A stretch of 62,825 nucleotides of DNA, the filler included, from Candidatus Huberarchaeum crystalense (lineage in GTDB: Archaea; Huberarchaeota; Huberarchaeia; Huberarchaeales; Huberarchaeaceae), in assembly GCA_002790315.1 (NCBI GenBank). It is 10 parts of 10 records of this genome, joined end to end, with 100 filler letters (N's around TTAATTAATTAA, not from the genome) between each part and the next. Parts side by side here need not be neighbours in the genome. Positions count along the whole stretch, not along the records: positions 38,125 to 44,941 come from PFUW01000008.1; 9 more parts are not named here. One strand, 5' to 3'. This document shows positions 71 through 61,247 of the stretch, piece after piece. The position numbers were made by a program, and so were the translations under genes. Numbering within the stretch: the first letter of the stretch is position 1; every line of letters begins with the position of its first letter. The notes below the pieces were generated by a model, which ran no database searches, was not told where the DNA came from, and saw only the letters and a program-made list of their open reading frames with translations.

Positions 71-823
71 TCAATTATTAAAAAGCTCGACGGGGTTAAT
101 TTTGAATTGCAACATTTTTGCCGAATCCCGTCCGGCGTCTCCGCCTTTTCTCTGCATTGTTATTTTTCCGATTTTCAAACTGCCTTGATTTGTAATTCTC
201 ACCGGGCCGTCGGCAAAAACATTCATGGCATGATTTATTGATTTCAAAATCCAACTGCTTTCGCCGTTGGCTACCAAAGCGACCAACATCCAACCCGCCG
301 AAAATTTACCCTTGCCTTTCAAAATATCGGAAACAACCAAAATTTTGTTTTTGGTGAAATAATCTATAATTTTTTGTTGATCGGTTTCGCTCATCTCGTT
401 TAAAAACATTCTTCGCTTGTCTTTCAATCCTGACTTTGTCGGTGCGATTTCACCCGTGAAAGTTTTCAAAATTTTGGTAATATCCGCCGGAATTTCCCAC
501 ATCTCAACATATTTATCTACCCACCTTTTATCTATTTGATTAAATCCTTGCGAGTTACTGACTAATTTTATAGACAAATTTTCGGCGGCAATGGCTTTTT
601 TGAGATAAATCGTTATCTGAACTTGGACATCGGTTTTATATCCGTGCAGTTTCATCGCTTCCACTTTTTCGATTTCTTTAATGGGATAACCCATTATCGC
701 CAACCATTTTTGAGCGTCCTCGTCTTTTTTCCAATCGTTAAACTTTCGGACTATATCGTCCTCGTTCCTAAATCCGCCCTTTGCGGTTTCCGAACCCCAT
801 TTTGTCAAATCTTTTTTATTCAT
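71..823 (-). CDS. Type II restriction endonuclease, R.HinP1I family (predicted GCGC)
   Basis: Motifs GSETAKGGFRNE, KLVSN..GFNQIDKRW, KDKRRMF and QRKGGD.GR..A.MLQFKINP follow the R.HinP1I sequence as I recall it. Confidence 0.85.
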   Translation of the reverse strand: MNKKDLTKWGSETAKGGFRNEDDIVRKFNDWKKDEDAQKWLAIMGYPIKEIEKVEAMKLHGYKTDVQVQITIYLKKAIAAENLSIKLVSNSQGFNQIDKRWVDKYVEMWEIPADITKILKTFTGEIAPTKSGLKDKRRMFLNEMSETDQQKIIDYFTKNKILVVSDILKGKGKFSAGWMLVALVANGESSWILKSINHAMNVFADGPVRITNQGSLKIGKITMQRKGGDAGRDSAKMLQFKINPVELFNN

Positions 824-1814
824 AATGATTCATGTAATTAAGCAAACTTTTGCCAATCGCCTCAATCGTGCTGACTGTCATAGCGTTTCCGGCTTGACTT
901 AATAAATAAACATCGGCGATTTTGCCTTTTGTTTTTTCACTCAAATTTTTTGGAAACCCTTGCAAAAGCAACGATTCAAAACCTGACAATCGCCTAAATT
1001 TTCCATTTCTTACATACAAAACGCCATGCCTTCCCGTTCTTAAAGTCGGAACTTTGTTTCTGTATAATCTCAAATCCGACTGGCGAGTATCCAAAACTAA
1101 ATAATCCTCTTTGAGCAGTTTTTCAATTTTGAATAATCCTTTGTTGTATTTATTGTCTAGATATTTCAAAAATGTTTCGTAAGCCCTCTTTTTTTCGTTA
1201 AACTCCATTTCGCTGTCGTCAATCAAATATTCTTGAACATCGGGCGGAAAAACTGGTTTTGGCCATTCAAAACTATTTCCGTTCACGAGGTCTTTTCTAA
1301 TCCCGACAAAATAAATTCTTTCCCGCATTTGAGGCACGCCGTAATCCAAACTATTCAAAACTCGGTGATAAACTTTGTATCCCGCTTTGTCTAATTCTTC
1401 CAAAATTATTTTTAAGGTTTTTCCGCCATCGTGATTTACCAAACCTTTTACATTTTCCAAAATGAAATACGGCAAATTTTTTGCGTTCATTATTTTAATT
1501 AAGCCGTAAATAATTTGCCCTCGGTGATCATTCATTCCTTTTCTTTGTCCGATAACAGAAAACGACTGGCAAGGAAAACCGGCGATCATTAAATCAAAAT
1601 CCGGCAAATCAGCAGGATTGATTTTCATTAAATCCCCGTGATTTTTTTCCTCTTGCCCAAAAAATTCTCGGTATGTTCGCTCGGCGTATCTATCAATTTC
1701 AGAAAAACCAACGCAACTTAAACCAAGATTTTGAAGTCCAAGCCGTCCCGCGCCAATTCCGGCGCAGAAATCCACAAATTTTAAATTATTTTTTTGCACG
1801 GCGGTCATACTCAT
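816..1814 (-). CDS. DNA (cytosine-5)-methyltransferase, predicted GCGC-specific
   Basis: Motif I FCAGIGA, IV GFPCQSFS, VI ENV, VIII QMRERIY, X AGNAM. The TRD segment DTRQSDLRLY...PTLRTGRHG resembles the H. pylori GCGC MTase (M.Hpy99III type) from memory. Confidence 0.92.
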   Translation of the reverse strand: MSMTAVQKNNLKFVDFCAGIGAGRLGLQNLGLSCVGFSEIDRYAERTYREFFGQEEKNHGDLMKINPADLPDFDLMIAGFPCQSFSVIGQRKGMNDHRGQIIYGLIKIMNAKNLPYFILENVKGLVNHDGGKTLKIILEELDKAGYKVYHRVLNSLDYGVPQMRERIYFVGIRKDLVNGNSFEWPKPVFPPDVQEYLIDDSEMEFNEKKRAYETFLKYLDNKYNKGLFKIEKLLKEDYLVLDTRQSDLRLYRNKVPTLRTGRHGVLYVRNGKFRRLSGFESLLLQGFPKNLSEKTKGKIADVYLLSQAGNAMTVSTIEAIGKSLLNYMNHYE

Positions 1815-2190: not shown

Positions 2191-2290
2191 NNNNNNNNNN
2201 NNNNNNNNNNNNNNNNNNNNNNNNNNNNNNNNNNTTAATTAATTAANNNNNNNNNNNNNNNNNNNNNNNNNNNNNNNNNNNNNNNNNNNN
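2191..2290. other. Artificial contig linker (also at 32442-32541, 35178-35277, 38025-38124, 44942-45041, 46369-46468, 53159-53258, 59816-59915, 61143-61242)
   Basis: Identical 100-nt N-run/TTAATTAATTAA/N-run units with stops in all six frames; genes are truncated at their edges. Confidence 0.97.
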
Positions 2291-11416: not shown

Positions 11417-11676
11417 AGATCAATATAATTTATTTAGTTGAGGGTATTTAAAAACCCCCCTCTATAAAAAATCAAAATACACAACAAAAAAATAAAAAAC
11501 AAAGAAGAAAAGGTGCAGTTAGAACTATTTTTCAATAAATCCTTCCTTCAAAAAAAGAAGGAAAAAAATAGTTTTAGAGCTCAATTTTAAAGCTATTTTC
11601 GCTAAAAAAGCGAAAATATATCAAAGCACTGCTTTGATGCTCGATGCTCTTTACTTCAAAAAAACAAGGAGGAAAA

Positions 11677-12798
11677 ATGTCATTCTTATTAAAAAAAGCA
11701 GAAGAAATAGCAGATATCCGAAAGGGTGAGTTCACATCAAAATTTAACGAAGCCCCATCAGTCAAAATAATAGTTTTTGGCTGTGGTGGTGCTGGGTCAA
11801 ACGCAGCGACAAACATATTTTCGCGCAATATGCCTGGTGTCACAGTTGTAGCGGCAAATACAGATGCTCAGCATCTAAATGAAAGAACCAGAGCAAATCA
11901 AAAAATATTGCTTGGTGCAGAGGTAACAAAAGGCAGGGGCGCAGGAGGTATAATGGGTATTGGCGGCGCTGCTGCTGAAGCAAGTATTCAAGAAATAAAA
12001 AACGCATTAAAAGGATCTGATCTTGTTTTCATCACAGCAGGTATGGGTGGAGGAACAGGAACAGGCACAGCGCCAATAGTGGCAAAAGCAGCAAAAGATC
12101 TAGGTGCTTTGGTAATTTCTATAATAACAATGCCTTTTTCTATGGAGTGCGGGCGCATCGGCACTGCAATTAGCGGTTTAGCAAAACTTAGAGAATTTTC
12201 AGATACAGTAACAGTGATTGACAACAACAGAATCACAGATGTATTTGGGGATTTACCTTGCAGAAATGCATTTGCTATGGCAGATACAATAATCACAACA
12301 TCGATTGAAGGAATTGCTACAACAGTGAACAATGTTGGTGAAATTAACTTAGATTTCTCTGACTTAAGAAGAATTTTTGAGACAGGCGGAACATTGGCAA
12401 CTGTCGGTGTTGGAGAAAAAAATAGCTCAGAAGCAAAAACAGAAGAAGAAAGTGTTGAAGCTGCTGTAAAGCAAGCACTATCTTCACCATTGTTAGACAT
12501 CACTTATGAAGGAGCAACAGGCGCACTTGTGGATATTACTGTTGGCACAAAAGTAAGGTTAAGAAACTTCACAAGAGTTGGTGAAATGATCGCATCCAAA
12601 ATGGATCCTGGTGCAATAAATATGGTTGGATTAAGAGTTTCTCCAGATATGGGTGAACACGGCGTCAGAGTAATTACTACTATCACAGGTGTGTCATCAC
12701 CGCAAATACTCAATCAAAAAAGTGAGTATGAGCAGGTTTTAGAGCGAAAAAACATTCTGAAGAGCAAGCTTGGACTTGACGCAATTGAGATAGATTAA
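11677..12798 (+). CDS. ftsZ: Cell division protein FtsZ (FtsZ2-like)
   Basis: GCGGAGSN, NTDAQHL, GMGGGTGTG, DNN, T7 loop INLDFSD; GGAGG SD before the ATG at 11677. The FtsZ2 assignment is tentative (PF..E..R spacing, C-terminal GLD.I). Confidence 0.96.
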   Translation: MSFLLKKAEEIADIRKGEFTSKFNEAPSVKIIVFGCGGAGSNAATNIFSRNMPGVTVVAANTDAQHLNERTRANQKILLGAEVTKGRGAGGIMGIGGAAAEASIQEIKNALKGSDLVFITAGMGGGTGTGTAPIVAKAAKDLGALVISIITMPFSMECGRIGTAISGLAKLREFSDTVTVIDNNRITDVFGDLPCRNAFAMADTIITTSIEGIATTVNNVGEINLDFSDLRRIFETGGTLATVGVGEKNSSEAKTEEESVEAAVKQALSSPLLDITYEGATGALVDITVGTKVRLRNFTRVGEMIASKMDPGAINMVGLRVSPDMGEHGVRVITTITGVSSPQILNQKSEYEQVLERKNILKSKLGLDAIEID

Positions 12799-32441: not shown

Positions 32442-32547
32442 NNNNNNNNNNNNNNNNNNNNNNNNNNNNNNNNNNNNNNNNNNNNTTAATTAATTAANNN
32501 NNNNNNNNNNNNNNNNNNNNNNNNNNNNNNNNNNNNNNNNNTAGCAC

Positions 32548-35177: not shown

Positions 35178-35277
35178 NNNNNNNNNNNNNNNNNNNNNNN
35201 NNNNNNNNNNNNNNNNNNNNNTTAATTAATTAANNNNNNNNNNNNNNNNNNNNNNNNNNNNNNNNNNNNNNNNNNNN

Positions 35278-38024
35278 TGTTGCTTTTGGGATGTCGTGCT
35301 CTTCAAACTCACCGTCGAGTTTATAAGTGACTGACGCTTCACCGCCATCTGCTTTGATTGTTGGTATTTTCCACAAAATCATATTGTCCTTAACAACTCC
35401 TCCTCTTGAAATTCCTGACCCAGAAGTATTTTGCGGCAATTCATCCTCAATAATTATATTTTTTATATCTGCTTTTGTTTTGTTTTTCACTGTAATGTAT
35501 ACATTGTTGTTTTCGTCAATGAATTTTGTTGCTTTGACTTTTTTTCGCAAAAATAACCATGCTAAAATTCCTGCAATTGCAATTAACAAAAGCCACCATA
35601 AGTTAGAAAGTGCTCCTAAAAATATACCTGTGATTCCACTACTGGCTGCTATTGGTTCATTGTAAAGTGTAATTTTCTTTGTCATTCTTTTTTCACTATA
35701 ACTTATAGAAACATTTGCCCCAGAATTGTTTGCTCCATAATTATTCACATTAAATATGTAGCATGCCTCTTTTCCTGACAAAACATAGATAGTAGTTGAA
35801 GTATGATTAAAAGTCCAGTTTGATTTTGGATCTATGTTGACAGAAATTTTAACATAACCAGAAGTGCAATTAGTTGCAATTACGCACACCTTAATTGCTT
35901 TTGTAGCGTTTATTGTTGTGATTTTTTCAATTGTTGGTTGATTTACAGATGTTTGGTTTGCTGTCAAATTTGTCAATGTTATGTTAGTGATATTTTCTGT
36001 TGTATTATTATTGGATCTATTTGTTGTCGAGGATAAAAGGTTCACTTCTGCGTGAATTTCAGAAACGCTGAAGTTTGCTATCTCAAACACACAAACAGGT
36101 TTTGGTTTTTCATATTTAACTTTTAGCACACAGCCATAGTAATAGTGGCTTATTTGCTTTGGTTTTGCAGTAATTGTGCAGATGCCTTCGTCAGTAAGAG
36201 ATATGTTAATAGGATGCACTTCTGCAATAAGATTTGAAGTAATGCTTATATTTGAACAATTTGTTTCAAAATCATAGAAGTCAATGACTTTTGCCAAAGA
36301 TGCATTGCTAATATTCGCAATGTTAAGTCCTGACATTGTAAAATTAAATGTCGCTGTTGGGGATGTTAAAATATATTTCCCTTGTTGCAAAGGATAATTT
36401 CCAATAAAGTTGCATCCAATATTTGATTTTACATGGTATACCTTGCTACTGGTTGTGTGTACAACGCATACTCCGCAATCAGCAGGGCAAGTTGAGCAAT
36501 TCTCATCTTTGTCAGATTCACACATTCCATTACCACAACAAGATAAATCATTACCATCACAATTTTGGTCAATTCCATCGCCGCAGATTTCTGTTGCTCC
36601 TGGATGAATGCTTGCATTACTATCATTGCAATCTGTGTTATTTGTTACATAGCCTGTCGGTGGTTGTGTGCAAGTAGTATTTGCTGTACAATTTAAAGTA
36701 ATTGTATCTGTTGCATTTCCATAACCATCATTGTCAGCATCGCGGTAGTATGTGTAAATCACATCAATTGAGCCATTGGTTTGGTTGGTTTGGTTTGTTC
36801 CGCTTGACGAATTGACACTTACGCTGTTTGCAGTAATATTTGTTATATTAACTTTTAATTGTGTTGTAAGATTTATTGCACAAGAAGTGGCATTTTTCAA
36901 GATTGAAACATTCCACTTACAAAGGTTTGTTGTCGCATTGCAATCCCCAGCAAATCCAATACAATCTGAACTGTTGCTTATTATTATTAAATTACTTGAA
37001 ACTTGGTCAATTATTGTTAAATTTTCGTCTGTTCTATCACCTGTGTTGTTCAAAACAATTGTATATAAAATTGAGTCGCTGGCGCGCGCATTTGTCGCGT
37101 TTGCTGTTTTTGTCACAATTGTGTTTGGATGTGTAATATTTATTGTTTCATTGGTCGTTGCGTTTATTGTATTGCCGTTAATCGTAAGGTTGGCTGTGTT
37201 TATTGGAACTTGTAAGGTATTTGGCTTTACTTTTGTGGTAAGATTTATTATACAAACAGAATTATTCTCTAATGTTGAAATTGTAAAGTTGCAAAAGTTT
37301 GTTGTCGCATTACATTCACTGCTTGCGTTTTCGCAAGATGTTGTATTGCTAATAATTGTCAAATTCTCAAATAATTGATCTATCACACTAATATTTGATG
37401 CGTTGCCATCACCAGTATTATTAAGTGTGAGTATATATATGATTTGATCACCAACATTTACAGGATTAGAATAAACTGCTGTTTTTGTTATAGTCACATT
37501 AGCTTCGCTTATTTTGTTTAATGTCCACCCCCCACTACCTAATTCAAAAGATGATGTTGTTGAAGATGTTATTGTTGTTGAAGTTGAGAATGTGTGTTTA
37601 ACATTCCCTAATACGCGCACAACATTTGTAAAATTTCTGTTTTCGTCAAAATCATTTGATTGAAGTACATGGGTCGCAGAATAAAATTTTGTTTCGCCCA
37701 CATTAAAGTTACCGATGGCTTGCACAAAGTTAATTTGCGAATCATTGAGAACAACGTCTGTTAAATTCACTGTTCCATTGTTTGTTACATTAATTGTATA
37801 AGTGATTGTGTCGCCAACTTTTGCAGTGTGCGGGCCTGTTTTTAGAACACTTACACTAGGGTTAACATCAATCCCATCGCAATTTTCGTCAATTCCGTTA
37901 CGCCACAAAGCTGGATTTCCAAACTCGTTTATGCCTGGGTGGATTGATGCTTTGTTGTCATTACAGTCTGTGTTATTTGTTGTATATCCTGCTGGTGATG
38001 TGCATGCTTGAATTGTGTTTGTTG
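35278..38024 (-). CDS. Large surface glycoprotein with MopE-related putative metal-binding repeats and DUF11-like domains (truncated at both ends)
   Basis: [11 protein letters not shown]...[27 protein letters not shown]......GD.I.Y.I...N.G repeats; dense sequons; late TM helix; frame open across the whole contig. Confidence 0.85.
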
Positions 38025-38124
38025 NNNNNNNNNNNNNNNNNNNNNNNNNNNNNNNNNNNNNNNNNNNNTTAATTAATTAANNNNNNNNNNNNNNNNNNNN
38101 NNNNNNNNNNNNNNNNNNNNNNNN

Positions 38125-41100
38125 ATAATATTATGCTTGAAATTTGTATCACTGCCATAAATTGCTGAGTTAATAATATTTTGTTTTGGGGATTCAAATG
38201 CAATTTTTGTTAATAGCGCATCCTTTTGTGCTAGCACACCAAACCGCATAATTCCTAAAGGTTTTCCATAGAAAAATAATCTATCTGCGAGCAAATCTAA
38301 AAATTCCTCGCGCACATCAATACCTTGAGCTGTAAAAATAATATTTATATTTTCTAAAAATGTGGCGCGACCTGCTTCTAAACCAAAGATTTTGGTCATT
38401 TCTATAATATTATTAGAAAAAACACGAGTTGGATCTACTAATTCATTTTTCAAAACACCCAATATATTACTCCCGCGCGTTTCAATACAACCTTTATTTT
38501 CCAAAACATGCGCTTCAAGAATTCTTGGTACTCCACGCACAATTTTTCTTAATATTCTGTTTTTCAAAAACATTATCTCTTTAAACCCGATTTTTTTAAT
38601 AGAAAATCGCAATTCGTTTCCATTTTCTGTTAAATCATATGTCTTGCTATGTTCAAGTTGCTTTACAATAAACTCAACATCTGCTTTATCAGAGCAAGTT
38701 AGCAATAATATGCCATTTTCTACATCTAATTTTACATCACTTACATAGTCTTGTATCTTTCGTTGAACAAGTTGATCTGCGAGATTTATCAAATCAGTTG
38801 GTTGCTTGGGATAAATTTGCATCAATTCTTTTGGCGGGTTTGCGCGCATTTCAAGAAAAGCAAGCAAATCATTTGAAGCCATAGTTCCAATAAGTGACCC
38901 TGATGATCCTGCAAAGTGAAACGCACTTAACGCGCTCTGACTTATTTTTTCAGATAAGGCATGGGCAATAATTATGCCAACAGGAGCTCCCACTGGCGGA
39001 CAATCAAAATTTTGGTATTTTAAGTTTTCTACAAATTTATTTTTTGTATATTCAAAAGTTACAACATTACTATCACCATCCCTAATTATATTTTTATCAT
39101 CCATATACAAATCTTGAAGAGCATAAACTAATTTTCTTTCACCATAACCCGTTTCAGGAATTATTGTGTAGGCAGTAATAAAACTCTCGCGCGAACTATA
39201 AGATGCAAAAACAAACTCTCTCGGTGTTAGTCCTTTTTTAAAGTTGCTTTTAATAAATCCGCGTGCTTCTGGTGAGGTGTTGTCTCTTTTTATATGAGAA
39301 ATTGCGCGTCCATCATAACCTATTTCAGGTCTTCCATTAGTAATAATTTGCTGACCACACATTCCAACCATTTTACCAAAGTTAGGATATCCTCCACGAG
39401 CACCTGAAATAGCCATAATATGTGCAGAGCTATTAATATTTGCATTTTTCAAAAGAATATCATAAACATTATTTCTTATATTATCTAGTTCATATATAAT
39501 TTCTTGTTCTTTCATAGATCTAATTTTTTTCTCAGCTTCAGCATATTTGGTTTCAATAAAAGAATCAATTGTGTTTTCAACTTTTTTATTAACTACATAA
39601 TCAGACAAACCAACAGTAAAGCCCCTGTATTGAATTAAATAACTTAAACTGATATTGCAAATATTTTCAATAAGTTTAGCTGCTTCTTCAGGCGTTCTTT
39701 TAATATAAAAATCCTTAATCAAAACTCCAACTGTTTTGTTTGTCAAAATCCCAGATATTATTCCATCTTTTATAATAACATCTTTTCCTTTGTATTCATA
39801 ATCTTTTGGAAATATGGCTGACAATATTTCAAGAGGTAGGTAAGAATCCTTGGATTTAAGATTAGAAATCACATCAAATGAGCAATTGCTTAAAATTTGC
39901 TGAGCTTGAGAAAAAGATATTAGCGACTTATCGTGAGACATTAAATACAAAGAGGAAATGTGTCCGTGTTTTGGTTTTATTAGCAAACTACCATCTCTAG
40001 CTGAAATTAAATTATACTTTACTTTCATAAGTGCTTCTGCCTCTGCTCTTGCTTCAATATCTTGCAAGAACCACATATTCATTTCATCTCCATCAAAGTC
40101 AGCGTTAAAAGGAGATGTAAGCACCGGATTAAATCTAAATGCGCGAATTCCTGGCAAAACCTTTGCTTTAAATGCCATCACACTATATTTGTGCAAAGAT
40201 GGTTGCCTATTAAAAATTAAAATATCTCCATCTTTTGCATTGCGAAAGATAATCCAACCAGGAGCTAAACTGCTTGCTAATTCTTCTTTATTTTCAGCAG
40301 TAATTCGTCGTTTTGAACCAGTAGGCAAAACAACATTTAATGCACTAGGATATGTTCCGCTGTTTAAAATATAACTCTTCATTTCTTCAATGTTTCGTGA
40401 TGTTACTACATCTGAAATACCCATATTTCTTGCTATTGTTTCAGGTACTCCTACTTCATCAAGTTTAAGATAAGGATCTGCGCTAATTACGCTTCTTGCT
40501 GCATAGTCAGTTCTTTTTCCTAACAAATTATTTCTAAACATTCCATCTTTTGAAGTCAATCTCTGTATAAGTGTGTTCAAAGGGATATTTGAAGATGGGT
40601 GACGCGCAACGGCCACGCGCGAAAGCTCATTATCAATCAGAGTGCCAATATGATATTGCAAAAGCGACCACATATCTTCAATAACAACTTCAGGTGCGCC
40701 CTTTTCCAAGCTGGCTGATAAATAATTGTTAATTCTTAATATGTCAGCATATTTATGGGTGAGGTCATCTTCTGCTTTTACTCCTGTTTCAAGTGTAATT
40801 GTTGGCCTAACTGTCAAAGGTGCAACAAGAAAGTGAGTAAAAATCATCCACTCTGGTCTATTTAAAGGATTAAATCCCAAATAAACCAAATCCTCTGTTT
40901 TAACTTTTTCTAGCCAAGTGCGAATTTGAATAGGGTTAATATTATGTTCATGGTCATTAAAAAAATAATCCCATGGAAGTTCAAGTATTATTTTGTCTTG
41001 GTTAGTGTTGCAAAATGGGCATGTTTTTGGTTTTTCTACAAGCTTTAAATAATCATCAATCATATGCAGTATATTATTTAAAGATTTTCCTTGTATTTCA

Positions 41101-41474
41101 AGTCTATTTTTTAAGGCATTAAGTTCTTGTTTTTTTTTGTCAGAAAAAAGCAATGCTCCGCATGATTGGCAAGTATAAGAAAGAATATGATGTATTTTGC
41201 GCGCAAACAGAGGATTTATAATAGGACGAGACAATTCAATATGCCCAAAATGTCCATAGCATTGGTTCATCATTCCGTGACATGTCTCGCAACGCACGCC
41301 AGGGGTAATAACTCCCATTCTTGAATCTGCCAAGCCATTAGGAATTACAAAACCATCTTCATTATATAATTGATAATTATTAATATTTACTACAGCTATT
41401 TTTTTAATCATTTCAGGACTTAAAAGGCCAAAACTCATAGATTCAATTTTTTTTAGATTTATATTTTCAATCAT
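38125..41474 (-). CDS. rpo1: RNA polymerase largest subunit, Rpo1N and Rpo1C in one ORF (3'-truncated)
   Basis: C..C..M..C.GHFGHIEL, GKR, NRQPSLH and NADFDGD are followed without a stop by A''-type sequence (FHFAG, G.P.I, SNNI.E....G.EA.R, AFE). Confidence 0.95.
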
Positions 41475-44400
41475 TTTTCCTCCTTGCTTTTTACACTGCT
41501 ATAATCTGTTTCTGATTTAAGCAATGGTGATATTCCCATTGCGCGCAAATAATTGATTACTGTATTTAACACAAAAGGAATTTCGACAAAAGATGTTTTT
41601 TCTTGCCTTGATATGCCTTTAACAGTGCGAGTTTGATAATCAAAATAAGGTGCTAAATATTGATTTGAAACAGGAATTTTTATAGAATCAATATCAAACA
41701 ATGAATCAAGCACAGTTGTAGCTCCGTGTGCAAGTAAAGCATCTTTTTCCATTTCTCCAAATTTTAAACCTCCTGCTGATGCTTTGCCTTCTGTTGGCTG
41801 TCGAGTAAGTAGTGTGCGCGGACCTGTTGTGCGAACTTGCATTTTTCTTGAAACCAAATGTTCTAATCTTTGATATAACAAAGGAACTAAAAATATTTTA
41901 ACTTTGAATTTTTCACCTGTTCTTGGATTATACATAACTTCATTTCCATCACCGTCAAACCCTTGTTTTTCAAGCTCTTTTGCAATTTCTGCCTCATCAA
42001 ATACATCAAAAGCACTTGCTTCTTGAAGTTTTCCAGTAAGTATTGCATATTTGGCTAATATACCTGAAAGCAACTGCGCATAAGTCATTCTACTTGGAAC
42101 GCCATGAGGGTTAAACAATACATCAGGTATAATTCCCTTTTCGCTAAAAGGCATATCATTTTCAGGAACAATTGCACTTATAACTCCTTTTTGCCCTTCT
42201 CTTAATGAAAATTTATCTCCAATTTCAGGAATGCAATCATAGTACATTCTTATTTTAACTATTTTTTCTAAACCATCATTAAAAGTTACAAGTATGTCAT
42301 CAATATTATAATCTACAAAATCATTACTACTAATAGAAGTATCCCATAAGCTTAGATATCCTTCAACATTAAAATAACCACTCATAAATCTTGGAGGAGC
42401 AACCTTACCTACTAAAATATTGTTGCGCGAAATAGTTTCACCTACTTTTATAATTCCATCTCCTTCAAGTTTAGAATAATAAATAGTATCTGATTTTCCT
42501 TTAACATCTTCTGCTGGGATTTGAATTTTCTCGCTTAATCCATTAGCATATTTCTTTTCAATTACTTCTTTGTGCGTTAAAAAGATAGATCTTCCAACCC
42601 CACGCTCAATTGATGCTTTGTTAAATATAAGTGCATCTTCCATATTTGAGCCACCTTCAACAAAAGCAACTACTAAGTTTTGCCCACCCATTAAAAGGCT
42701 TTTTTCAAATAAATCATGATATGCTGTTCTAACCAATGGTTTTTGCAAATAATTAAGAACATGTTTATTTACATCATAAGTATTGAAAAAGTTTGAGCTA
42801 TATATTCCTGCTGCTGAACCTTTAACTTCTTTAACAGATTTTCCCAATCTTGGTGCATCACTGTGGTTTGCCAAAGGAAGCATATTTGCAGCAACTCCCA
42901 TAACAGATGTAGGATTAATTTCCAGGTGAGTGTGGTCTTTTGTTAATTCGTCTTCGCTAAACGCAACAAATGCTTCATTTTCTTCATCTGCTCCAATATA
43001 TTCGATTATTCCCTTGCTAACAAGATCAAACCATTTTATTTCTTCTTTTTTAACCTTTGCAGCAATCTCTTTTGTATACATTGATTTTCCATTGTTTACT
43101 ACAATCAACGCTCTTATCAACATACCTTTAATTGCTTCGATGAATAAATTTTTATCTTTTGAATAAATTTGATAGTGGTAATCAATTATGCCTTGCCGCC
43201 TCAAGTCGCGCAACTTTGATTTTAAAGCATCAATATTATCGCAAGTCATAATAGGTATTGTGTCATAAAAAACAAGATTTTTTTCAGCAAAAATATTTGA
43301 ACTAAAATTATAATGTTTTGCTCCTTGCTCTTTTAATATTTGCTCTACTTTCTTTTTTTGTTCAGGAACAGGCATTGCAGTAATAGCAAAAATTGCTGCT
43401 TGCTTTGTTAAGCCAACTTTGGAATCTTCAGGAGTATCTACAATACAAATTCTGCCAACATGAGATCCATGAATATGGCGCGCTTCATCTGTTGCAACAT
43501 CCATATCTAAATTTGAGTTAATTTGGCGAAGAAGAGTAAGTTGTTGAAGTGCATTCTTTTTTTCAAGCAAGTGTGTAACACCTTTGGTGCCATTTGGCCA
43601 TGCACCTGTGCGAAGGGCATTGTAAATATAAGTATTCATTGACTCAAAATTAACAATAGTAGCTAAATTCCACTCTCGCTTTCGCGTTCTAATAGATGCA
43701 AAATAGCGCGAAATATCTCTAGCAAGCACATTAAAAGCAATATTCATTAAGCTTTTTAATTGTTCGCCAACCAAAAGAAGCTCTTTGTTTCCTATAAAAT
43801 CCTTATCTACTCGGTATTTGGGGTCTTTATAATATATATTTGCCATATGTGCCAAATACAGTGCTTTTTCTTTATTTGCTGACTCCTCTCTTCCAATATG
43901 AGGTAATAAACCAGAGTGAATAAAGTTTAAAACATCTTGGCGGCGATTAGTTTTAGGAATATGCGCTTTATTTCCTATCATTTCTATTGCTTCTTCTCGA
44001 TTTTTAGGAGCATCTTGAAAATTAATATACATCATTGGATTATCAATAAGCTGAATAATTTCTTTATCTGACTCTATACCTAAAATTTTAAACAAAGCAA
44101 CAATAGGAAGACTTTTAAATCTTCCAAAAGAAAGCACAAGATGATTATCTTTGGTAAAATTAAGAGAATGTGGCGCGCGATACCCGCCAGTGTAAGAAAA
44201 AACCTGGGCTCGTTCACCTGCTACAAGCACTTTATTTGAAACAAGTTCTTCAATCGCAACAACAAATCTCTCAACACCATCAATAATAAAATAACCACCA
44301 ACATCAAAAGGATCTAATCCTTGCTTAATCTTTTGACTTACAGAAATTTTTGGAAAAAATGGATCAATGACACTACCAATCATAATTGGAAAATCGCATA

Positions 44401-44704
44401 GTTTGACGCGCTCTTTTAAAATATGCTCTCCTTGTTTTGTCAATTCTACCTCAGCAGATATAGGTATAGAATAATTCAAATTGCGCAATATGCACTCTTT
44501 TGGAGAATATTTGGGTGTTCCAAAGGTAGGATTAGAAAAAGAAAAAACAAAAATTCCTTTCTCGCCAGCATCAATAGTTATATCTGAAAGCGTTGTAAAC
44601 ATATTTATTAACTCATGCACAACATAATAATTATAAGAATCAAGATGCAATGAAGAAAGAGGAATTGCGTTTATTGTTGCTTTTACTAACTCAAGATTTT
44701 GCAT
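41471..44704 (-). CDS. rpo2: RNA polymerase subunit Rpo2 (B), unsplit
   Basis: GGYFIIDG.ER, TPE, N.EDA, GDKF..R.GQKG, PD...NPHG.PSRMT, LTRQPTEG.A..GGL.FGEME.D. Confidence 0.96.
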   Translation of the reverse strand: MQNLELVKATINAIPLSSLHLDSYNYYVVHELINMFTTLSDITIDAGEKGIFVFSFSNPTFGTPKYSPKECILRNLNYSIPISAEVELTKQGEHILKERVKLCDFPIMIGSVIDPFFPKISVSQKIKQGLDPFDVGGYFIIDGVERFVVAIEELVSNKVLVAGERAQVFSYTGGYRAPHSLNFTKDNHLVLSFGRFKSLPIVALFKILGIESDKEIIQLIDNPMMYINFQDAPKNREEAIEMIGNKAHIPKTNRRQDVLNFIHSGLLPHIGREESANKEKALYLAHMANIYYKDPKYRVDKDFIGNKELLLVGEQLKSLMNIAFNVLARDISRYFASIRTRKREWNLATIVNFESMNTYIYNALRTGAWPNGTKGVTHLLEKKNALQQLTLLRQINSNLDMDVATDEARHIHGSHVGRICIVDTPEDSKVGLTKQAAIFAITAMPVPEQKKKVEQILKEQGAKHYNFSSNIFAEKNLVFYDTIPIMTCDNIDALKSKLRDLRRQGIIDYHYQIYSKDKNLFIEAIKGMLIRALIVVNNGKSMYTKEIAAKVKKEEIKWFDLVSKGIIEYIGADEENEAFVAFSEDELTKDHTHLEINPTSVMGVAANMLPLANHSDAPRLGKSVKEVKGSAAGIYSSNFFNTYDVNKHVLNYLQKPLVRTAYHDLFEKSLLMGGQNLVVAFVEGGSNMEDALIFNKASIERGVGRSIFLTHKEVIEKKYANGLSEKIQIPAEDVKGKSDTIYYSKLEGDGIIKVGETISRNNILVGKVAPPRFMSGYFNVEGYLSLWDTSISSNDFVDYNIDDILVTFNDGLEKIVKIRMYYDCIPEIGDKFSLREGQKGVISAIVPENDMPFSEKGIIPDVLFNPHGVPSRMTYAQLLSGILAKYAILTGKLQEASAFDVFDEAEIAKELEKQGFDGDGNEVMYNPRTGEKFKVKIFLVPLLYQRLEHLVSRKMQVRTTGPRTLLTRQPTEGKASAGGLKFGEMEKDALLAHGATTVLDSLFDIDSIKIPVSNQYLAPYFDYQTRTVKGISRQEKTSFVEIPFVLNTVINYLRAMGISPLLKSETDYSSVKSKEEK

Positions 44705-44744
44705 CAGCAATATCTCTCAACAAACATCATAAAGTAAGTTGCCA

Positions 44745-44941
44745 CTAAACAACTCCTCTATAATATATTTTTCCATTTTTGCGTGTGATTTTAATAATGT
44801 CACCTGGTTTGCCTTTAATTGCTTTGATTACAGGGTCAGTTATATCTATTTTTGGCAAATTTTCAAAAGAAATACTATAAAACTCAAATATTTTTCGCGC
44901 TTCTTCGCTTGTTATGATTTTGTGGTCTGGTACAAGATAGT
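44745..44941 (-). CDS. rpo5: RNA polymerase subunit Rpo5 (H), 5'-truncated
   Basis: Hand translation YLVPDHKIITSEEARKIFEFYSISFENLPKIDITDPVIKAIKGKPGDIIKITRKNGKIYYRGVV*; standard position upstream of rpo2; not in the ORF track. Confidence 0.93.
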
Positions 44942-45041
44942 NNNNNNNNNNNNNNNNNNNNNNNNNNNNNNNNNNNNNNNNNNNNTTAATTAATTAANNN
45001 NNNNNNNNNNNNNNNNNNNNNNNNNNNNNNNNNNNNNNNNN

Positions 45042-46368: not shown

Positions 46369-46468
46369 NNNNNNNNNNNNNNNNNNNNNNNNNNNNNNNN
46401 NNNNNNNNNNNNTTAATTAATTAANNNNNNNNNNNNNNNNNNNNNNNNNNNNNNNNNNNNNNNNNNNN

Positions 46469-53158: not shown

Positions 53159-53382
53159 NNNNNNNNNNNNNNNNNNNNNNNNNNNNNNNNNNNNNNNNNN
53201 NNTTAATTAATTAANNNNNNNNNNNNNNNNNNNNNNNNNNNNNNNNNNNNNNNNNNNNTTTGTTGGTTTAGTGCTATTTCTTGTTCAACTTTATTTTCAG
53301 GAGAGTCTTGTTTGTTAGGAGTTTTTTCTACCATATTATTTATATAATAATATTTATATAATACATTTACAACAAAAATAAT

Positions 53383-59815: not shown

Positions 59816-60035
59816 NNNNNNNNNNNNNNNNNNNNNNNNNNNNNNNNNNNNNNNNNNNNTTAATTAATTAANNNNNNNNNNNNNNNNNNNNNNNNNNNNN
59901 NNNNNNNNNNNNNNNCAGGAAAATGAAGATAAAGAAAACAACAAAAATAAATTTAAAAAAAGAGCAATCATATTTTCTGCTGTCGGGCCTGAGATTTATG
60001 AATTTTAAATTTTTTTAAATAAATATAATAATATT

Positions 60036-61142: not shown

Positions 61143-61247
61143 NNNNNNNNNNNNNNNNNNNNNNNNNNNNNNNNNNNNNNNNNNNNTTAATTAATTAANN
61201 NNNNNNNNNNNNNNNNNNNNNNNNNNNNNNNNNNNNNNNNNNTGGGG

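What the first reader, a model, noticed from the sequence alone, without database searches (positions are those of the whole stretch)
38880..39240. RNA polymerase with degenerate bridge helix and trigger loop, joined by a short A'-A'' fusion
Seen: the bridge helix reads FVFASYSSRESFITAYTIIPETGYGERKLVYALQDL and the trigger loop reads AHALSEKISQSALSAFHFAG. Known archaeal consensus is roughly FFFHA.GGREGLVDTAVRT..SGY.QRRL..AL.DL and AQSIGEPGTQMTL.TFH.AG, among the most conserved RNAP segments. NADFDGD and the trigger-loop His are kept. Only about 40 residues separate ALQDL from the trigger helix, so Rpo1N and Rpo1C are fused with most of the intervening region lost; most archaea split them. Inference: co-evolved changes that could alter fidelity, pausing or translocation, reminiscent of plant Pol IV/V divergence, in an enzyme encoded at the standard rpo5-rpo2-rpo1 locus.
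Basis: partly seen in the sequence, partly recalled or inferred. Interest (0 to 1): 0.7.

Follow-up and report, generated by a model that had tools for sequence, protein, structure and literature searches.

The report
Hyper-divergent RNA polymerase of a DPANN archaeon
A small groundwater archaeon encodes, at the normal polymerase locus, an RNA polymerase whose two most conserved moving parts have been rewritten yet stay conserved among its relatives, making it a natural test case for how these parts control transcription.

Summary
Window 38125-41474 (-) encodes a fused Rpo1 (1141 aa in full-length contigs) downstream of rpoH and rpo2. The quoted bridge helix (BH, 39108-39215) and trigger loop (TL, 38850-38969) are there, with NADFDGD and the TL His.

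Two claims need separating. The short A'-A'' fusion is ordinary: 35 of 80 reference-genome loci, mostly Woese-, Pace- and Nanoarchaeota, have it, most often with the window's 47-residue spacing. A secondary fusion in Pacearchaeota is in print. The BH proline is also common (51 of 80).

The rest is confined to four sequences. In them, 44 of 197 near-invariant archaeal positions are replaced (panel median 0.7%), enriched in BH+TL (13/26 vs 31/171). A HMMER scan of 1.84 billion representatives found no intermediates. The NTP-contact residues Gln, Leu and His are kept. The hinge glycines, a BH salt-bridge pair and most of the TL open-state pocket are replaced. The new sequences are better conserved within the clade than the protein average.

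The organism evolves fast generally, but RNAP most of all among eight proteins. Best reading: a re-tuned, still functional housekeeping polymerase. Kinetic consequences are inferred, and a second canonical rpo1 could not be excluded because no genome is held.

The parts
38125..41474 (-). rpo1, fused A'+A'' largest RNAP subunit. It is cut about 25 codons before its end by the end of the contig; the full length is 1141 aa in L001-L003.
   Evidence: (five Rpb1 Pfam domains above cut-off).
40086..40106 (-). NADFDGD metal-A motif (residues 457-463), intact.
   Evidence: These columns are invariant in the alignment.
39108..39215 (-). Bridge helix, residues 754-789. 23 of 36 positions differ from the consensus of non-DPANN archaea.
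38970..39107 (-). Short A'-A'' junction (residues 790-835). It replaces roughly the last 30 residues of A' and the first ~54 of A''.
   Evidence: (alignment ends in solved Rpo1N and Rpo1C chains).
38850..38969 (-). Trigger loop and trigger helices, residues 836-875. Gln846, Leu849 and His853 are kept; pocket and hinge residues are replaced.
41471..44710 (-). rpo2 (unsplit, 1079 aa), equally isolated in sequence space.
41609..41668 (-). Place of the Rpo2 C-terminal zinc ribbon. All four cysteines are absent.
44745..44941 (-). rpoH (Rpo5), C-terminal 64 codons plus the stop. The start is lost at the contig end.
   Evidence: The full 81-aa gene in L003 matches Pfam RNA_pol_Rpb5_C.

Best explanation
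This is the working housekeeping RNA polymerase of a long-branch DPANN archaeon, known so far from four sequences, one from a groundwater MAG. It inherited the short fused Rpo1 and the BH proline that are usual in the Woese-/Pace-/Nanoarchaeota group. On the stem of this clade both large subunits went through a burst of substitution that hit the mobile parts of the active centre hardest. After that the new sequences came under purifying selection.

The chemistry is kept: the Asp triad, Asn457, Arg423, TL Gln/Leu/His and BH Gly-Tyr. What changed are the parts that set the dynamics:
- the N-terminal BH hinge (Met-Gly-Gly became Tyr-Ser-Ser);
- the BH Asp-Lys/Arg salt-bridge pair (became Thr and Ile/Thr);
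- four of five TL members and one of two BH members of the pocket that holds the TL open (Ala to Ile, Met to Ser, Thr to Ala, Gly to Ala, BH Ile/Met to Gly);
- the TL C-terminal hinge (Arg to Asp, Glu to Ala).

Inference: the open/closed balance of the TL and the kinking of the BH are set differently, so speed, fidelity and pausing probably differ from canonical archaeal RNAP. Single changes at these positions in yeast Pol II and M. jannaschii RNAP mostly give faster, less accurate enzymes. In this protein they may partly compensate one another.
For: Shown:
- The canonical operon rpoH-rpo2-rpo1 lies in a chromosomal context of SMC, Tyw1, LSm, FtsZ and DNA ligase. The window's other contigs carry ribosomal proteins, EF1A, aIF2a, aRF1 and tRNA synthetases.
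- 44 of 197 positions that are at least 95% conserved in 95 archaeal Rpo1 are changed. The panel median is 0.7% and the next outlier is 33 of 193.
- The changes are enriched in BH+TL: 13/26 vs 31/171, p = 8e-4.
- Identity to three clade relatives is 33/36, 29/36 and 30/36 in the BH and 37/40, 35/40 and 37/40 in the TL, against 82, 74 and 76% overall.
- The clade stem is the longest branch in two Rpo1 trees (1.22 and 1.15 changes per site; the next are 0.51 and 0.48). Within-clade branches are 0.05-0.17.
- The stem is 1.65 for Rpo2 and 0.58 for EF1A.
- I took the ratio of window-to-reference identity over identity among four reference genomes. It is 0.70 for Rpo1 and 0.71 for Rpo2, against 0.79-0.94 for FttA, EF1A, aRF1, IleRS, Kae1 and PyrG. 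A Pacearchaeota genome gives about 0.86-0.96 throughout, worked out by me from the identities printed.
- There are no intermediates: of 2782 hits among 1.84 billion representatives, one reaches E <= 1e-30 and it is a clade member. The next scores 107 bits at 35% identity.
- Kept residues: Gln846 is found in 171/174, Leu849 in 172/174, His853 in 171/174, Gly776 and Tyr777 in 252/252.

From papers (passages read):
- M808 is a hotspot for superactivity, G809/G810/G825 make the hinges, and Q823-D/E are superactive (PMC2988716).
- The pocket A1076, M1079, T1080, G1097, L1101 with BH I837 and L841 stabilises the open TL, and its variants are mostly gain-of-function. E1103G is fast and error-prone. 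D826 and K830 form a salt bridge (PMC5127505).
Against: - The organism evolves fast in general. EF1A has 19 of 138 near-invariant positions changed against a median of 0.7%, so part of the pattern is not specific to RNAP.
- The Rpo2 panel is biased towards Bathyarchaeia, so its 159/383 overstates that subunit's divergence.
- The Rpo2 ratio rests on one reference pair.
- DPANN polymerases in general already differ at a median of 7-16 of 36 BH positions.
- Many replacements remove Gly, Ala, Arg or Pro, as AT pressure would do (my reading of the list).
- No genome is held and no clade member is in the reference genomes. It is therefore not shown that this is the only RNAP, nor what TFS or Spt4/5 look like.
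- Nothing was measured. Effects of single mutations in other enzymes need not add up, and PMC5127505 itself stresses dependence on context.
- The tree position is only moderately supported (SH-aLRT 82-87) and long-branch attraction is possible.
Confidence: 0.55

Rival explanations
1. Compensated drift with no net change of function. A tiny, AT-rich, probably host-dependent cell fixed slightly harmful changes everywhere, followed by compensating ones. The polymerase behaves much like any other archaeal RNAP.
For: EF1A (19/138), FttA and aRF1 (ratios 0.79 and 0.83) are also unusually diverged. Paired changes look compensatory: both partners of the BH salt bridge are lost, BH side chains grow bulkier (Met to Tyr, Leu to Phe, Ala to Tyr) while TL side chains shrink (Met to Ser, Thr to Ala/Ser). 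Many changes lose Gly, Arg or Pro. GC is 0.33.
Against: The RNAP subunits are the most diverged of eight proteins, and the excess is concentrated in BH/TL. 26 loci with GC <= 0.34 show at most 21 BH+TL differences against 35 here. IleRS, Kae1 and PyrG are nearly normal (0.92-0.94). This rival overlaps with the best explanation and differs from it only in the predicted kinetics.
Confidence: 0.28
2. A specialised second polymerase (a Pol IV/V-like paralogue) that works beside an undetected canonical RNAP.
For: The degree of divergence. Rpo1 and Rpo2 fail every NCBIfam equivalog cut-off (784.5 vs 819, 145.3 vs 420.65, 851.6 vs 1402). A source names the clade's proteins 'hypothetical protein'. The genome could not be searched.
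Against: The whole rpoH-rpo2-rpo1 operon is in the standard order, and its rpoH matches Pfam RNA_pol_Rpb5_C well above cut-off. No other rpo1 or rpo2 was seen among the roughly 50 window and locus ORFs scanned with Pfam. Other housekeeping proteins of the same organism share the long branch, as expected if the RNAP genes belong to the core genome. The TL contact residues are kept, unlike Pol IV/V. [quoted passage not shown]
Confidence: 0.1
3. An artefact: an assembly or consensus error, a chimera, or a gene of a virus or mobile element.
For: The window is an artificial chain of contigs.
Against: The gene lies wholly inside one contig. Three metagenome contigs match at 100% identity by tblastn. 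24 runs of 21 studies hold all sampled words, and 4 of 4 runs laid show 0 differences, although these may include the source and may be one campaign. Three diverged homologues keep the same variants. The neighbours are cellular housekeeping genes.
Confidence: 0.02

Closest known systems
Short fused Rpo1 of DPANN archaea (Woese-, Pace-, Nanoarchaeota; some Altiarchaeota, Micrarchaeota, Aenigmatarchaeota)
   Same: One ORF of about 1120-1180 aa. The BH-to-TL spacing is 47 residues in 24 of the 35 short fused loci, as here. A proline sits at the position of mjA' A822 (51 of 80 loci) and there is Ser in place of the Gly after Arg-Glu/Asp (39 of 80). A secondary fusion in Pacearchaeota is in print (PMC5484517, passages). 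The tree places the clade next to this group.
   Different: Those enzymes keep a near-canonical TL (0-8 of 20 positions differ against 12 here). They also keep the second hinge Gly, the Asp and Arg/Lys pair and the Arg-Arg after Gly-Tyr. They pass the NCBIfam A' cut-off, tested on one control, P0008. Identity to the window protein is only 31-40%.
Plant RNA polymerases IV and V (NRPD1, NRPE1)
   Same: These are multisubunit RNAPs with substitutions at otherwise invariant BH and TL positions that still make RNA. [quoted passage not shown]
   Different: They are non-essential paralogues beside Pol II, whereas this gene sits at the housekeeping locus. Pol IV/V have substitutions at three of four TL NTP-contact residues and deletions in the TL. 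Here one of four is changed and there is no deletion. Their proline aligns with mjA' S824, this one with A822. The supplementary alignment of PMC5737373 could not be seen.
Laboratory gain-of-function variants of the TL and BH (yeast Pol II E1103G, G1097 and pocket variants; M. jannaschii M808 and Q823 variants)
   Same: The same positions are altered in this natural enzyme: the equivalents of M808, G809/G810, D816, R820, Q823 (Glu here), A1076, M1079, T1080, G1097 and E1103.
   Different: Those are single changes in an otherwise canonical enzyme, with measured phenotypes. Here more than 30 changes coexist and nothing has been measured.

Membership tests
Archaeal RNAP largest subunit (Rpo1 / RpoA) | Rpb1 domains 1-5 in order, each above Pfam's gathering score | tested here: met
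   253, 184.9, 51.5, 56.1 and 98.8 bits against cut-offs of 39.7, 25.3, 28.9, 24.8 and 28.5.
Archaeal RNAP largest subunit (Rpo1 / RpoA) | Metal-A motif NADFDGD and the N-terminal zinc ligands | tested here: met
   C62, C65, C72, H75, C102, C105, C152 and C155 are invariant columns.
Archaeal RNAP largest subunit (Rpo1 / RpoA) | TL residues that contact the NTP (yeast Q1078, L1081, N1082, H1085) | tested here: inconclusive
   Three of four are kept (Gln846, Leu849, His853). The fourth is Ser850, where 107 of 174 have Asn, 33 Lys and 31 Arg.
Archaeal RNAP largest subunit (Rpo1 / RpoA) | NCBIfam equivalog score cut-offs for subunits A' and A'' | tested here: not met
   784.5 < 819; 775 < 1042.55; A'' 145.3 < 420.65. 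The control P0008 passes both A' models and scores 416.8 against 420.65 for A''.
Archaeal RNAP largest subunit (Rpo1 / RpoA) | Position in the rpoH-rpoB-rpoA operon | tested here: met
DPANN-type short fused Rpo1 | A single ORF with no more than about 60 residues between the BH and the TL | tested here: met
   47 residues here. 35 of 80 loci have a same-frame spacing <= 60, and 24 of them have 47.
DPANN-type short fused Rpo1 | Branches with Woese-/Pace-/Nanoarchaeota Rpo1 | tested here: inconclusive
   Sister to them with SH-aLRT 87, inside a group supported at 97. The branch is long, the tree search was quick, and the model was LG+G4.
Pol IV/V-like specialised paralogue | Coexists with a canonical polymerase in the same genome | not testable with these tools
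   No genome is held and there is no clade member in the reference genomes.
Pol IV/V-like specialised paralogue | Loss of most TL NTP-contact residues | tested here: not met
   Only one of four is changed, against three of four in Pol IV/V (PMC5737373).

The most novel reading that the evidence does not exclude
A free-standing cellular lineage runs all of its transcription on a polymerase whose trigger-loop gate has been rebuilt: the open-state pocket, the Glu hinge and the bridge-helix hinges are all replaced. This would be a natural 'gain-of-function' enzyme, fast and error-prone or otherwise kinetically unusual. Its altered fidelity might itself feed the exceptional protein divergence of the clade.
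Probability: 0.2. Interest if true: 0.75.

Novelty: new variant of a known kind. Interest (0 to 1): 0.55.

Why it matters
The BH and TL are the best-studied moving parts of multisubunit RNA polymerases. What is known about them comes from single mutations in yeast, E. coli and a few archaea. Here nature has combined more than 30 changes at those positions in an enzyme that stays under selection. Among them are sites where single mutations are hyperactive, and others at residues that are near-invariant in the panels.

If it is the cell's only polymerase, it shows how far the gate can be rebuilt while keeping the contact residues. It also offers ready-made compensatory sets to graft into tractable archaeal enzymes.

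On the practical side, these subunits fall below NCBI's family cut-offs and a source names them hypothetical proteins. Marker-gene pipelines may therefore miss or misplace this lineage.

Tried and rejected
- Own genome: the genome search 'own' found no genome held. Handles for the metagenome loci were not accepted. The questions of a second rpo1 and of TFS therefore stay open.
- TFS in the window: a regex for CxxC...CxxC zinc ribbons in six frames found three matches, none of them TFS-like; one lies in the lysyl-tRNA synthetase gene. This says nothing about the rest of the genome.
- Reference genomes: two scans found no clade member. The first gave 24 pattern matches, none confirmed. The second gave its best 80 loci, all at <= 40% identity.
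- Structure models: AlphaFold2 of the window protein gave mean pLDDT 75.6, a BH drawn as helices 751-770 and 777-786, and pLDDT < 50 at 763-781 and 841-867. A control with a canonical BH (P0008) gave pLDDT 77.9, helices 759-782 and 785-794, and pLDDT < 50 at 771-782 and 866-880. Both are poorly modelled there, so the models do not discriminate and I draw nothing from them. No coordinates are returned, so contacts could not be measured.
- Expression: no RNA holder was listed among the 24 runs.
- AT pressure as the sole cause: rejected, because 26 loci with GC <= 0.34 have at most 21 BH+TL differences against 35 here. The negative rank correlation of GC with the number of differences (rho -0.49) is confounded by phylogeny.
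- Taxonomy look-ups of the MAG name found nothing, and no paper holds that name.
- Literature: searches on BH/TL with DPANN, on fused or split rpoA in DPANN, on Pol IV/V and on fast-evolving archaeal RNAP listed no paper whose title or abstract start dealt with BH/TL divergence in DPANN. In three papers opened for this (PMC7289017, PMC13257274, bioRxiv 10.64898/2026.06.17.729505) the passages found did not deal with it either. Only the held library was searched. Supplementary figures S29 of PMC5484517 and S1 of PMC5737373 could not be seen and may bear on the fusion site and on the Pol IV/V comparison.
Full report
**What is there.**
Window 38073..41474 (-) is an ORF of 1133 codons, preceded by a 1079-codon ORF at 41471..44710 (-). 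Pfam finds Rpb1 domains 1-5 in order, all above their cut-offs. In the upstream ORF six of seven Rpb2 domains are above cut-off (domain 4 scores 20.8 against 28.7).

The best solved relatives are archaeal Rpo1N chains (E = 2.8e-172). The C-terminal 352 residues align with Rpo1C of Sulfolobus, residues 55-388 of 395, at only 109 bits. So one polypeptide covers A' and A''. Roughly the last 30 residues of A' and the first ~54 of A'' are replaced by a short junction.

**The window is a chain of contigs.**
Nine pairs of 44-N runs, each flanking the same 12-nt spacer, cut the window. The polymerase contig is 38125-44941. It holds the 3' part of rpoH, rpo2, and rpo1 without its last ~25 codons.

Three natural metagenome contigs match the 1141-aa protein at 100% identity by tblastn. 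They show this order: SMC, rpoH (81 aa, Pfam Rpb5_C), rpo2, rpo1, two TPR genes, a Tyw1-like radical-SAM gene, NUDIX, LSm, FtsZ, DNA ligase. Gene order outside the contig in the window therefore means nothing. The other contigs of the window carry ordinary archaeal housekeeping genes.

**Is the sequence real?**
24 groundwater and aquifer DNA runs from 21 studies hold all sampled words. In 4 of 4 runs laid, a ~6.9-kb contig covers 38600-39500 with no difference at depth 29-149. These runs may include the source and may belong to one campaign.

Independent support comes from three homologues at 82, 74 and 76% identity that carry the same BH and TL variants.

**The fusion is ordinary.**
Among the best 80 Rpo1 loci from one-genome-per-species reference genomes, 35 have the BH and TL in one frame no more than 60 residues apart. 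They are 10 Woesearchaeota, 8 Pacearchaeota, 9 Nanoarchaeota/Nanoarchaeia, 5 unnamed, and one each of Altiarchaeota, Micrarchaeota and Aenigmatarchaeota. 24 of them have the window's own spacing of 47.

In trees, fused and split forms are interleaved. A secondary fusion in Pacearchaeota is already in print (PMC5484517, passages; its figure S29 was not seen).

**What is shared with DPANN and what is not.**
DPANN bridge helices are already unusual. By group they differ from the consensus of the other archaea at a median of 7-16 of 36 positions. Pro at window residue 773 occurs in 51 of 80 loci and Ser764 in 39 of 80.

The window differs at 23 of 36 BH positions (relatives 20-22) and at 12 of 20 TL positions (relatives 11-12; DPANN groups have medians of 0-8). 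15 of the 23 BH changes and 8 of the 12 TL changes occur in none of 77-80 loci.

In a wider panel of 252 BH and 174 TL sequences, the window's residue is never seen at Tyr759, Thr767, Ala768, Tyr769, Ile771 and Gly778, nor at TL Ala839.

A full HMMER pass over 1.84 billion cluster representatives, with residues 700-900 as query, gave 2782 hits. Only one reached E <= 1e-30, and it is a clade member. The next scored 107 bits at 35% identity. No clade member is in the reference genomes.

**What is kept.**
- The Asp triad is intact.
- The Asn before it and the Arg of the NRQPSLH stretch are invariant columns.
- TL Gln846, Leu849, Phe852, His853 and Gly856 are kept.
- BH Arg762, Gly776, Tyr777 and Arg780 are kept.

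So the enzyme looks catalytically competent, and 'degenerate' is too strong a word.

**What is changed, mapped onto experiments.**
The mapping uses the residue names given in two papers, fixed to the alignment by invariant anchors.

In M. jannaschii numbering (PMC2988716, passages):
- M808, a hotspot where many substitutions give superactivity, is Tyr (Phe in one relative).
- Of the hinge glycines, G809 is Ser here but kept as Gly in all three relatives. G810 is Ser in three of the four clade sequences and Ala in the fourth.
- D816 is Thr and R820 is Ile (Thr in relatives).
- T821 is Ile in the window only.
- A822 is Pro, and Q823 is Glu (Q823-E is superactive in that enzyme).

In yeast numbering (PMC5127505, passages):
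- D826 and K830 form a salt bridge. Both partners are replaced here.
- The pocket that holds the TL open consists of A1076, M1079, T1080, G1097 and L1101, plus BH I837 and L841. Here these are Ile, Ser, Ala, Ala, Leu, plus Gly and Leu, so five of the seven mapped residues are changed, including the 'linchpin' Met.
- The Glu whose E1103G variant is fast and error-prone is Ala.
- The invariant Arg three residues before it is Asp.

The C-terminal TL mapping rests on the alignment, where Gly, Arg and Glu are 100% conserved in the 23 fused archaeal sequences (of the 95-sequence panel) and the eukaryotic sequences that cover these columns.

**Not just any part of the protein.**
Of 197 positions at least 95% conserved in 95 archaeal Rpo1, 44 are changed (22%). 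The panel median is 0.7% and the next outlier has 33 of 193. In BH+TL the share is 13 of 26 against 31 of 171 elsewhere (odds ratio 4.5, p = 8e-4).

Within the clade the BH (33/36, 29/36, 30/36) and TL (37/40, 35/40, 37/40) are better conserved than the whole protein (82, 74, 76%). This points to selection on the new form. No DNA of the relatives was at hand for dN/dS.

**Fast genome or fast polymerase?**
Both.
- EF1A has 19 of 138 near-invariant positions changed (median 0.7%). Its identity to others is 52%, against 65% among the others.
- Clade stem branches are 0.58 for EF1A, 1.15-1.22 for Rpo1 and 1.65 for Rpo2, each the longest branch in its tree.
- Against four reference genomes (Altiarchaeota, Archaeoglobus, Nitrosotenuis, Methanosphaera) I took the ratio of window-to-reference identity over identity among the references. 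It is 0.70 for Rpo1 and 0.71 for Rpo2 (one reference pair only). It is 0.79 for FttA, 0.79 for EF1A, 0.83 for aRF1, 0.92 for IleRS, 0.92 for Kae1 and 0.94 for PyrG.
- A Pacearchaeota genome gives about 0.86-0.96 for the six proteins found in it. I worked out that range from the identities printed.

The Rpo2 count of 159/383 rests on a panel dominated by one class and overstates the case. Other DPANN-like Rpo2 in that panel reach 18-26%.

AT pressure alone does not explain the pattern: 26 loci with GC <= 0.34 have at most 21 BH+TL differences against 35 here.

**Family membership.**
Pfam membership is clear. NCBIfam equivalog cut-offs are all missed:
- A': 784.5 < 819.
- A'': 145.3 < 420.65.
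- Rpo2: 851.6 < 1402.

An Altiarchaeota short fused control passes A'. This fits a source naming the clade's Rpo1 and Rpo2 'hypothetical protein'.

**Reading.**
The most economical account is a housekeeping RNAP of a long-branch DPANN clade. A stem-lineage burst rebuilt the dynamic parts of the active centre and spared the chemistry, and the enzyme has been stable since.

That it works differently is inferred from single-mutant data in other enzymes, and nothing was measured. The difference would be a changed TL open/closed balance and changed BH kinking, and hence changed rate, fidelity or pausing.

Compensated drift without net functional change is the main rival. A Pol IV/V-like second enzyme cannot be excluded without a genome, but the intact operon, the shared long branch of other core proteins and the retained contact residues all argue against it.

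AlphaFold2 models of the protein and of a canonical control are both poorly defined at the BH and TL, so they decide nothing.

**Limits.**
- No genome was available.
- There was no RNA evidence.
- Trees came from quick searches with LG+G4.
- The protein panels were chosen by similarity to the query.
- Supplements of the cited papers were not seen.

Noticed in passing
window 2191-2290, 32442-32541, 35178-35277, 38025-38124, 44942-45041, 46369-46468, 53159-53258, 59816-59915, 61143-61242: Each site is 44 N, a 12-nt spacer with stops in all frames, and 44 N. The window is therefore a chain of separate contigs, and gene order across these sites is artificial. The natural neighbours of rpo1 in L003 differ from those in the window.
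   Followed up: yes
window 41609-41668 (-), Rpo2 C-terminus: All four cysteines of the C-terminal zinc ribbon of Rpo2 are absent in 3 of 3 clade sequences. They are present in 115-117 of 117 panel sequences, including other DPANN-like ones.
   Followed up: partly
loci L009-L088 (bridge helix column of window residue 773): A proline at the position of M. jannaschii A' A822 occurs in 51 of 80 reference-genome loci, mostly Woese-, Pace- and Nanoarchaeota. A 2010 paper (PMC2988716) called natural bridge-helix prolines exceptionally rare and listed none at this position.
   Followed up: partly
P0007, P0274 (clade relatives from a groundwater MAG): A source names the clade's Rpo1 and Rpo2 'hypothetical protein'. 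Both window proteins score below every NCBIfam equivalog cut-off, so marker-based pipelines may miss them.
   Followed up: yes
P0098 (1597 aa): This is another outlying archaeal Rpo1. 33 of 193 near-invariant positions are changed, and no recognisable trigger loop was found by local alignment.
   Followed up: no
loci L060, L062, L066, L069, L076, L079: These records are titled 'uncultured Methanosarcinales' but carry the Woese-/Pacearchaeota-type bridge helix (Gly/Met for His, Thr-Gly, Pro, Leu-Tyr). They are probably mislabelled or mixed bins.
   Followed up: no
loci L018 and L021: One record is titled Aenigmatarchaeota and the other Nanohalarchaeota, yet they encode almost identical Rpo1 (end branches 0.036 and 0.009).
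   Followed up: no
window 71-1814 (-): An HinP1I-type restriction endonuclease sits next to a C-5 cytosine methyltransferase. The first contig, which carries them, has a higher GC (0.38) than the rest of the window.
   Followed up: no
window 35278-37908 (-): A large secreted or surface protein, rich in N-x-S/T sequons and with Cys-rich repeats and a C-terminal membrane span. It is cut at both ends by contig spacers and has no family assignment, because it was not scanned.
   Followed up: no
window 11644-12798 (+) and L003 10322-11605 (+): The organism has two different FtsZ-family genes.
   Followed up: no
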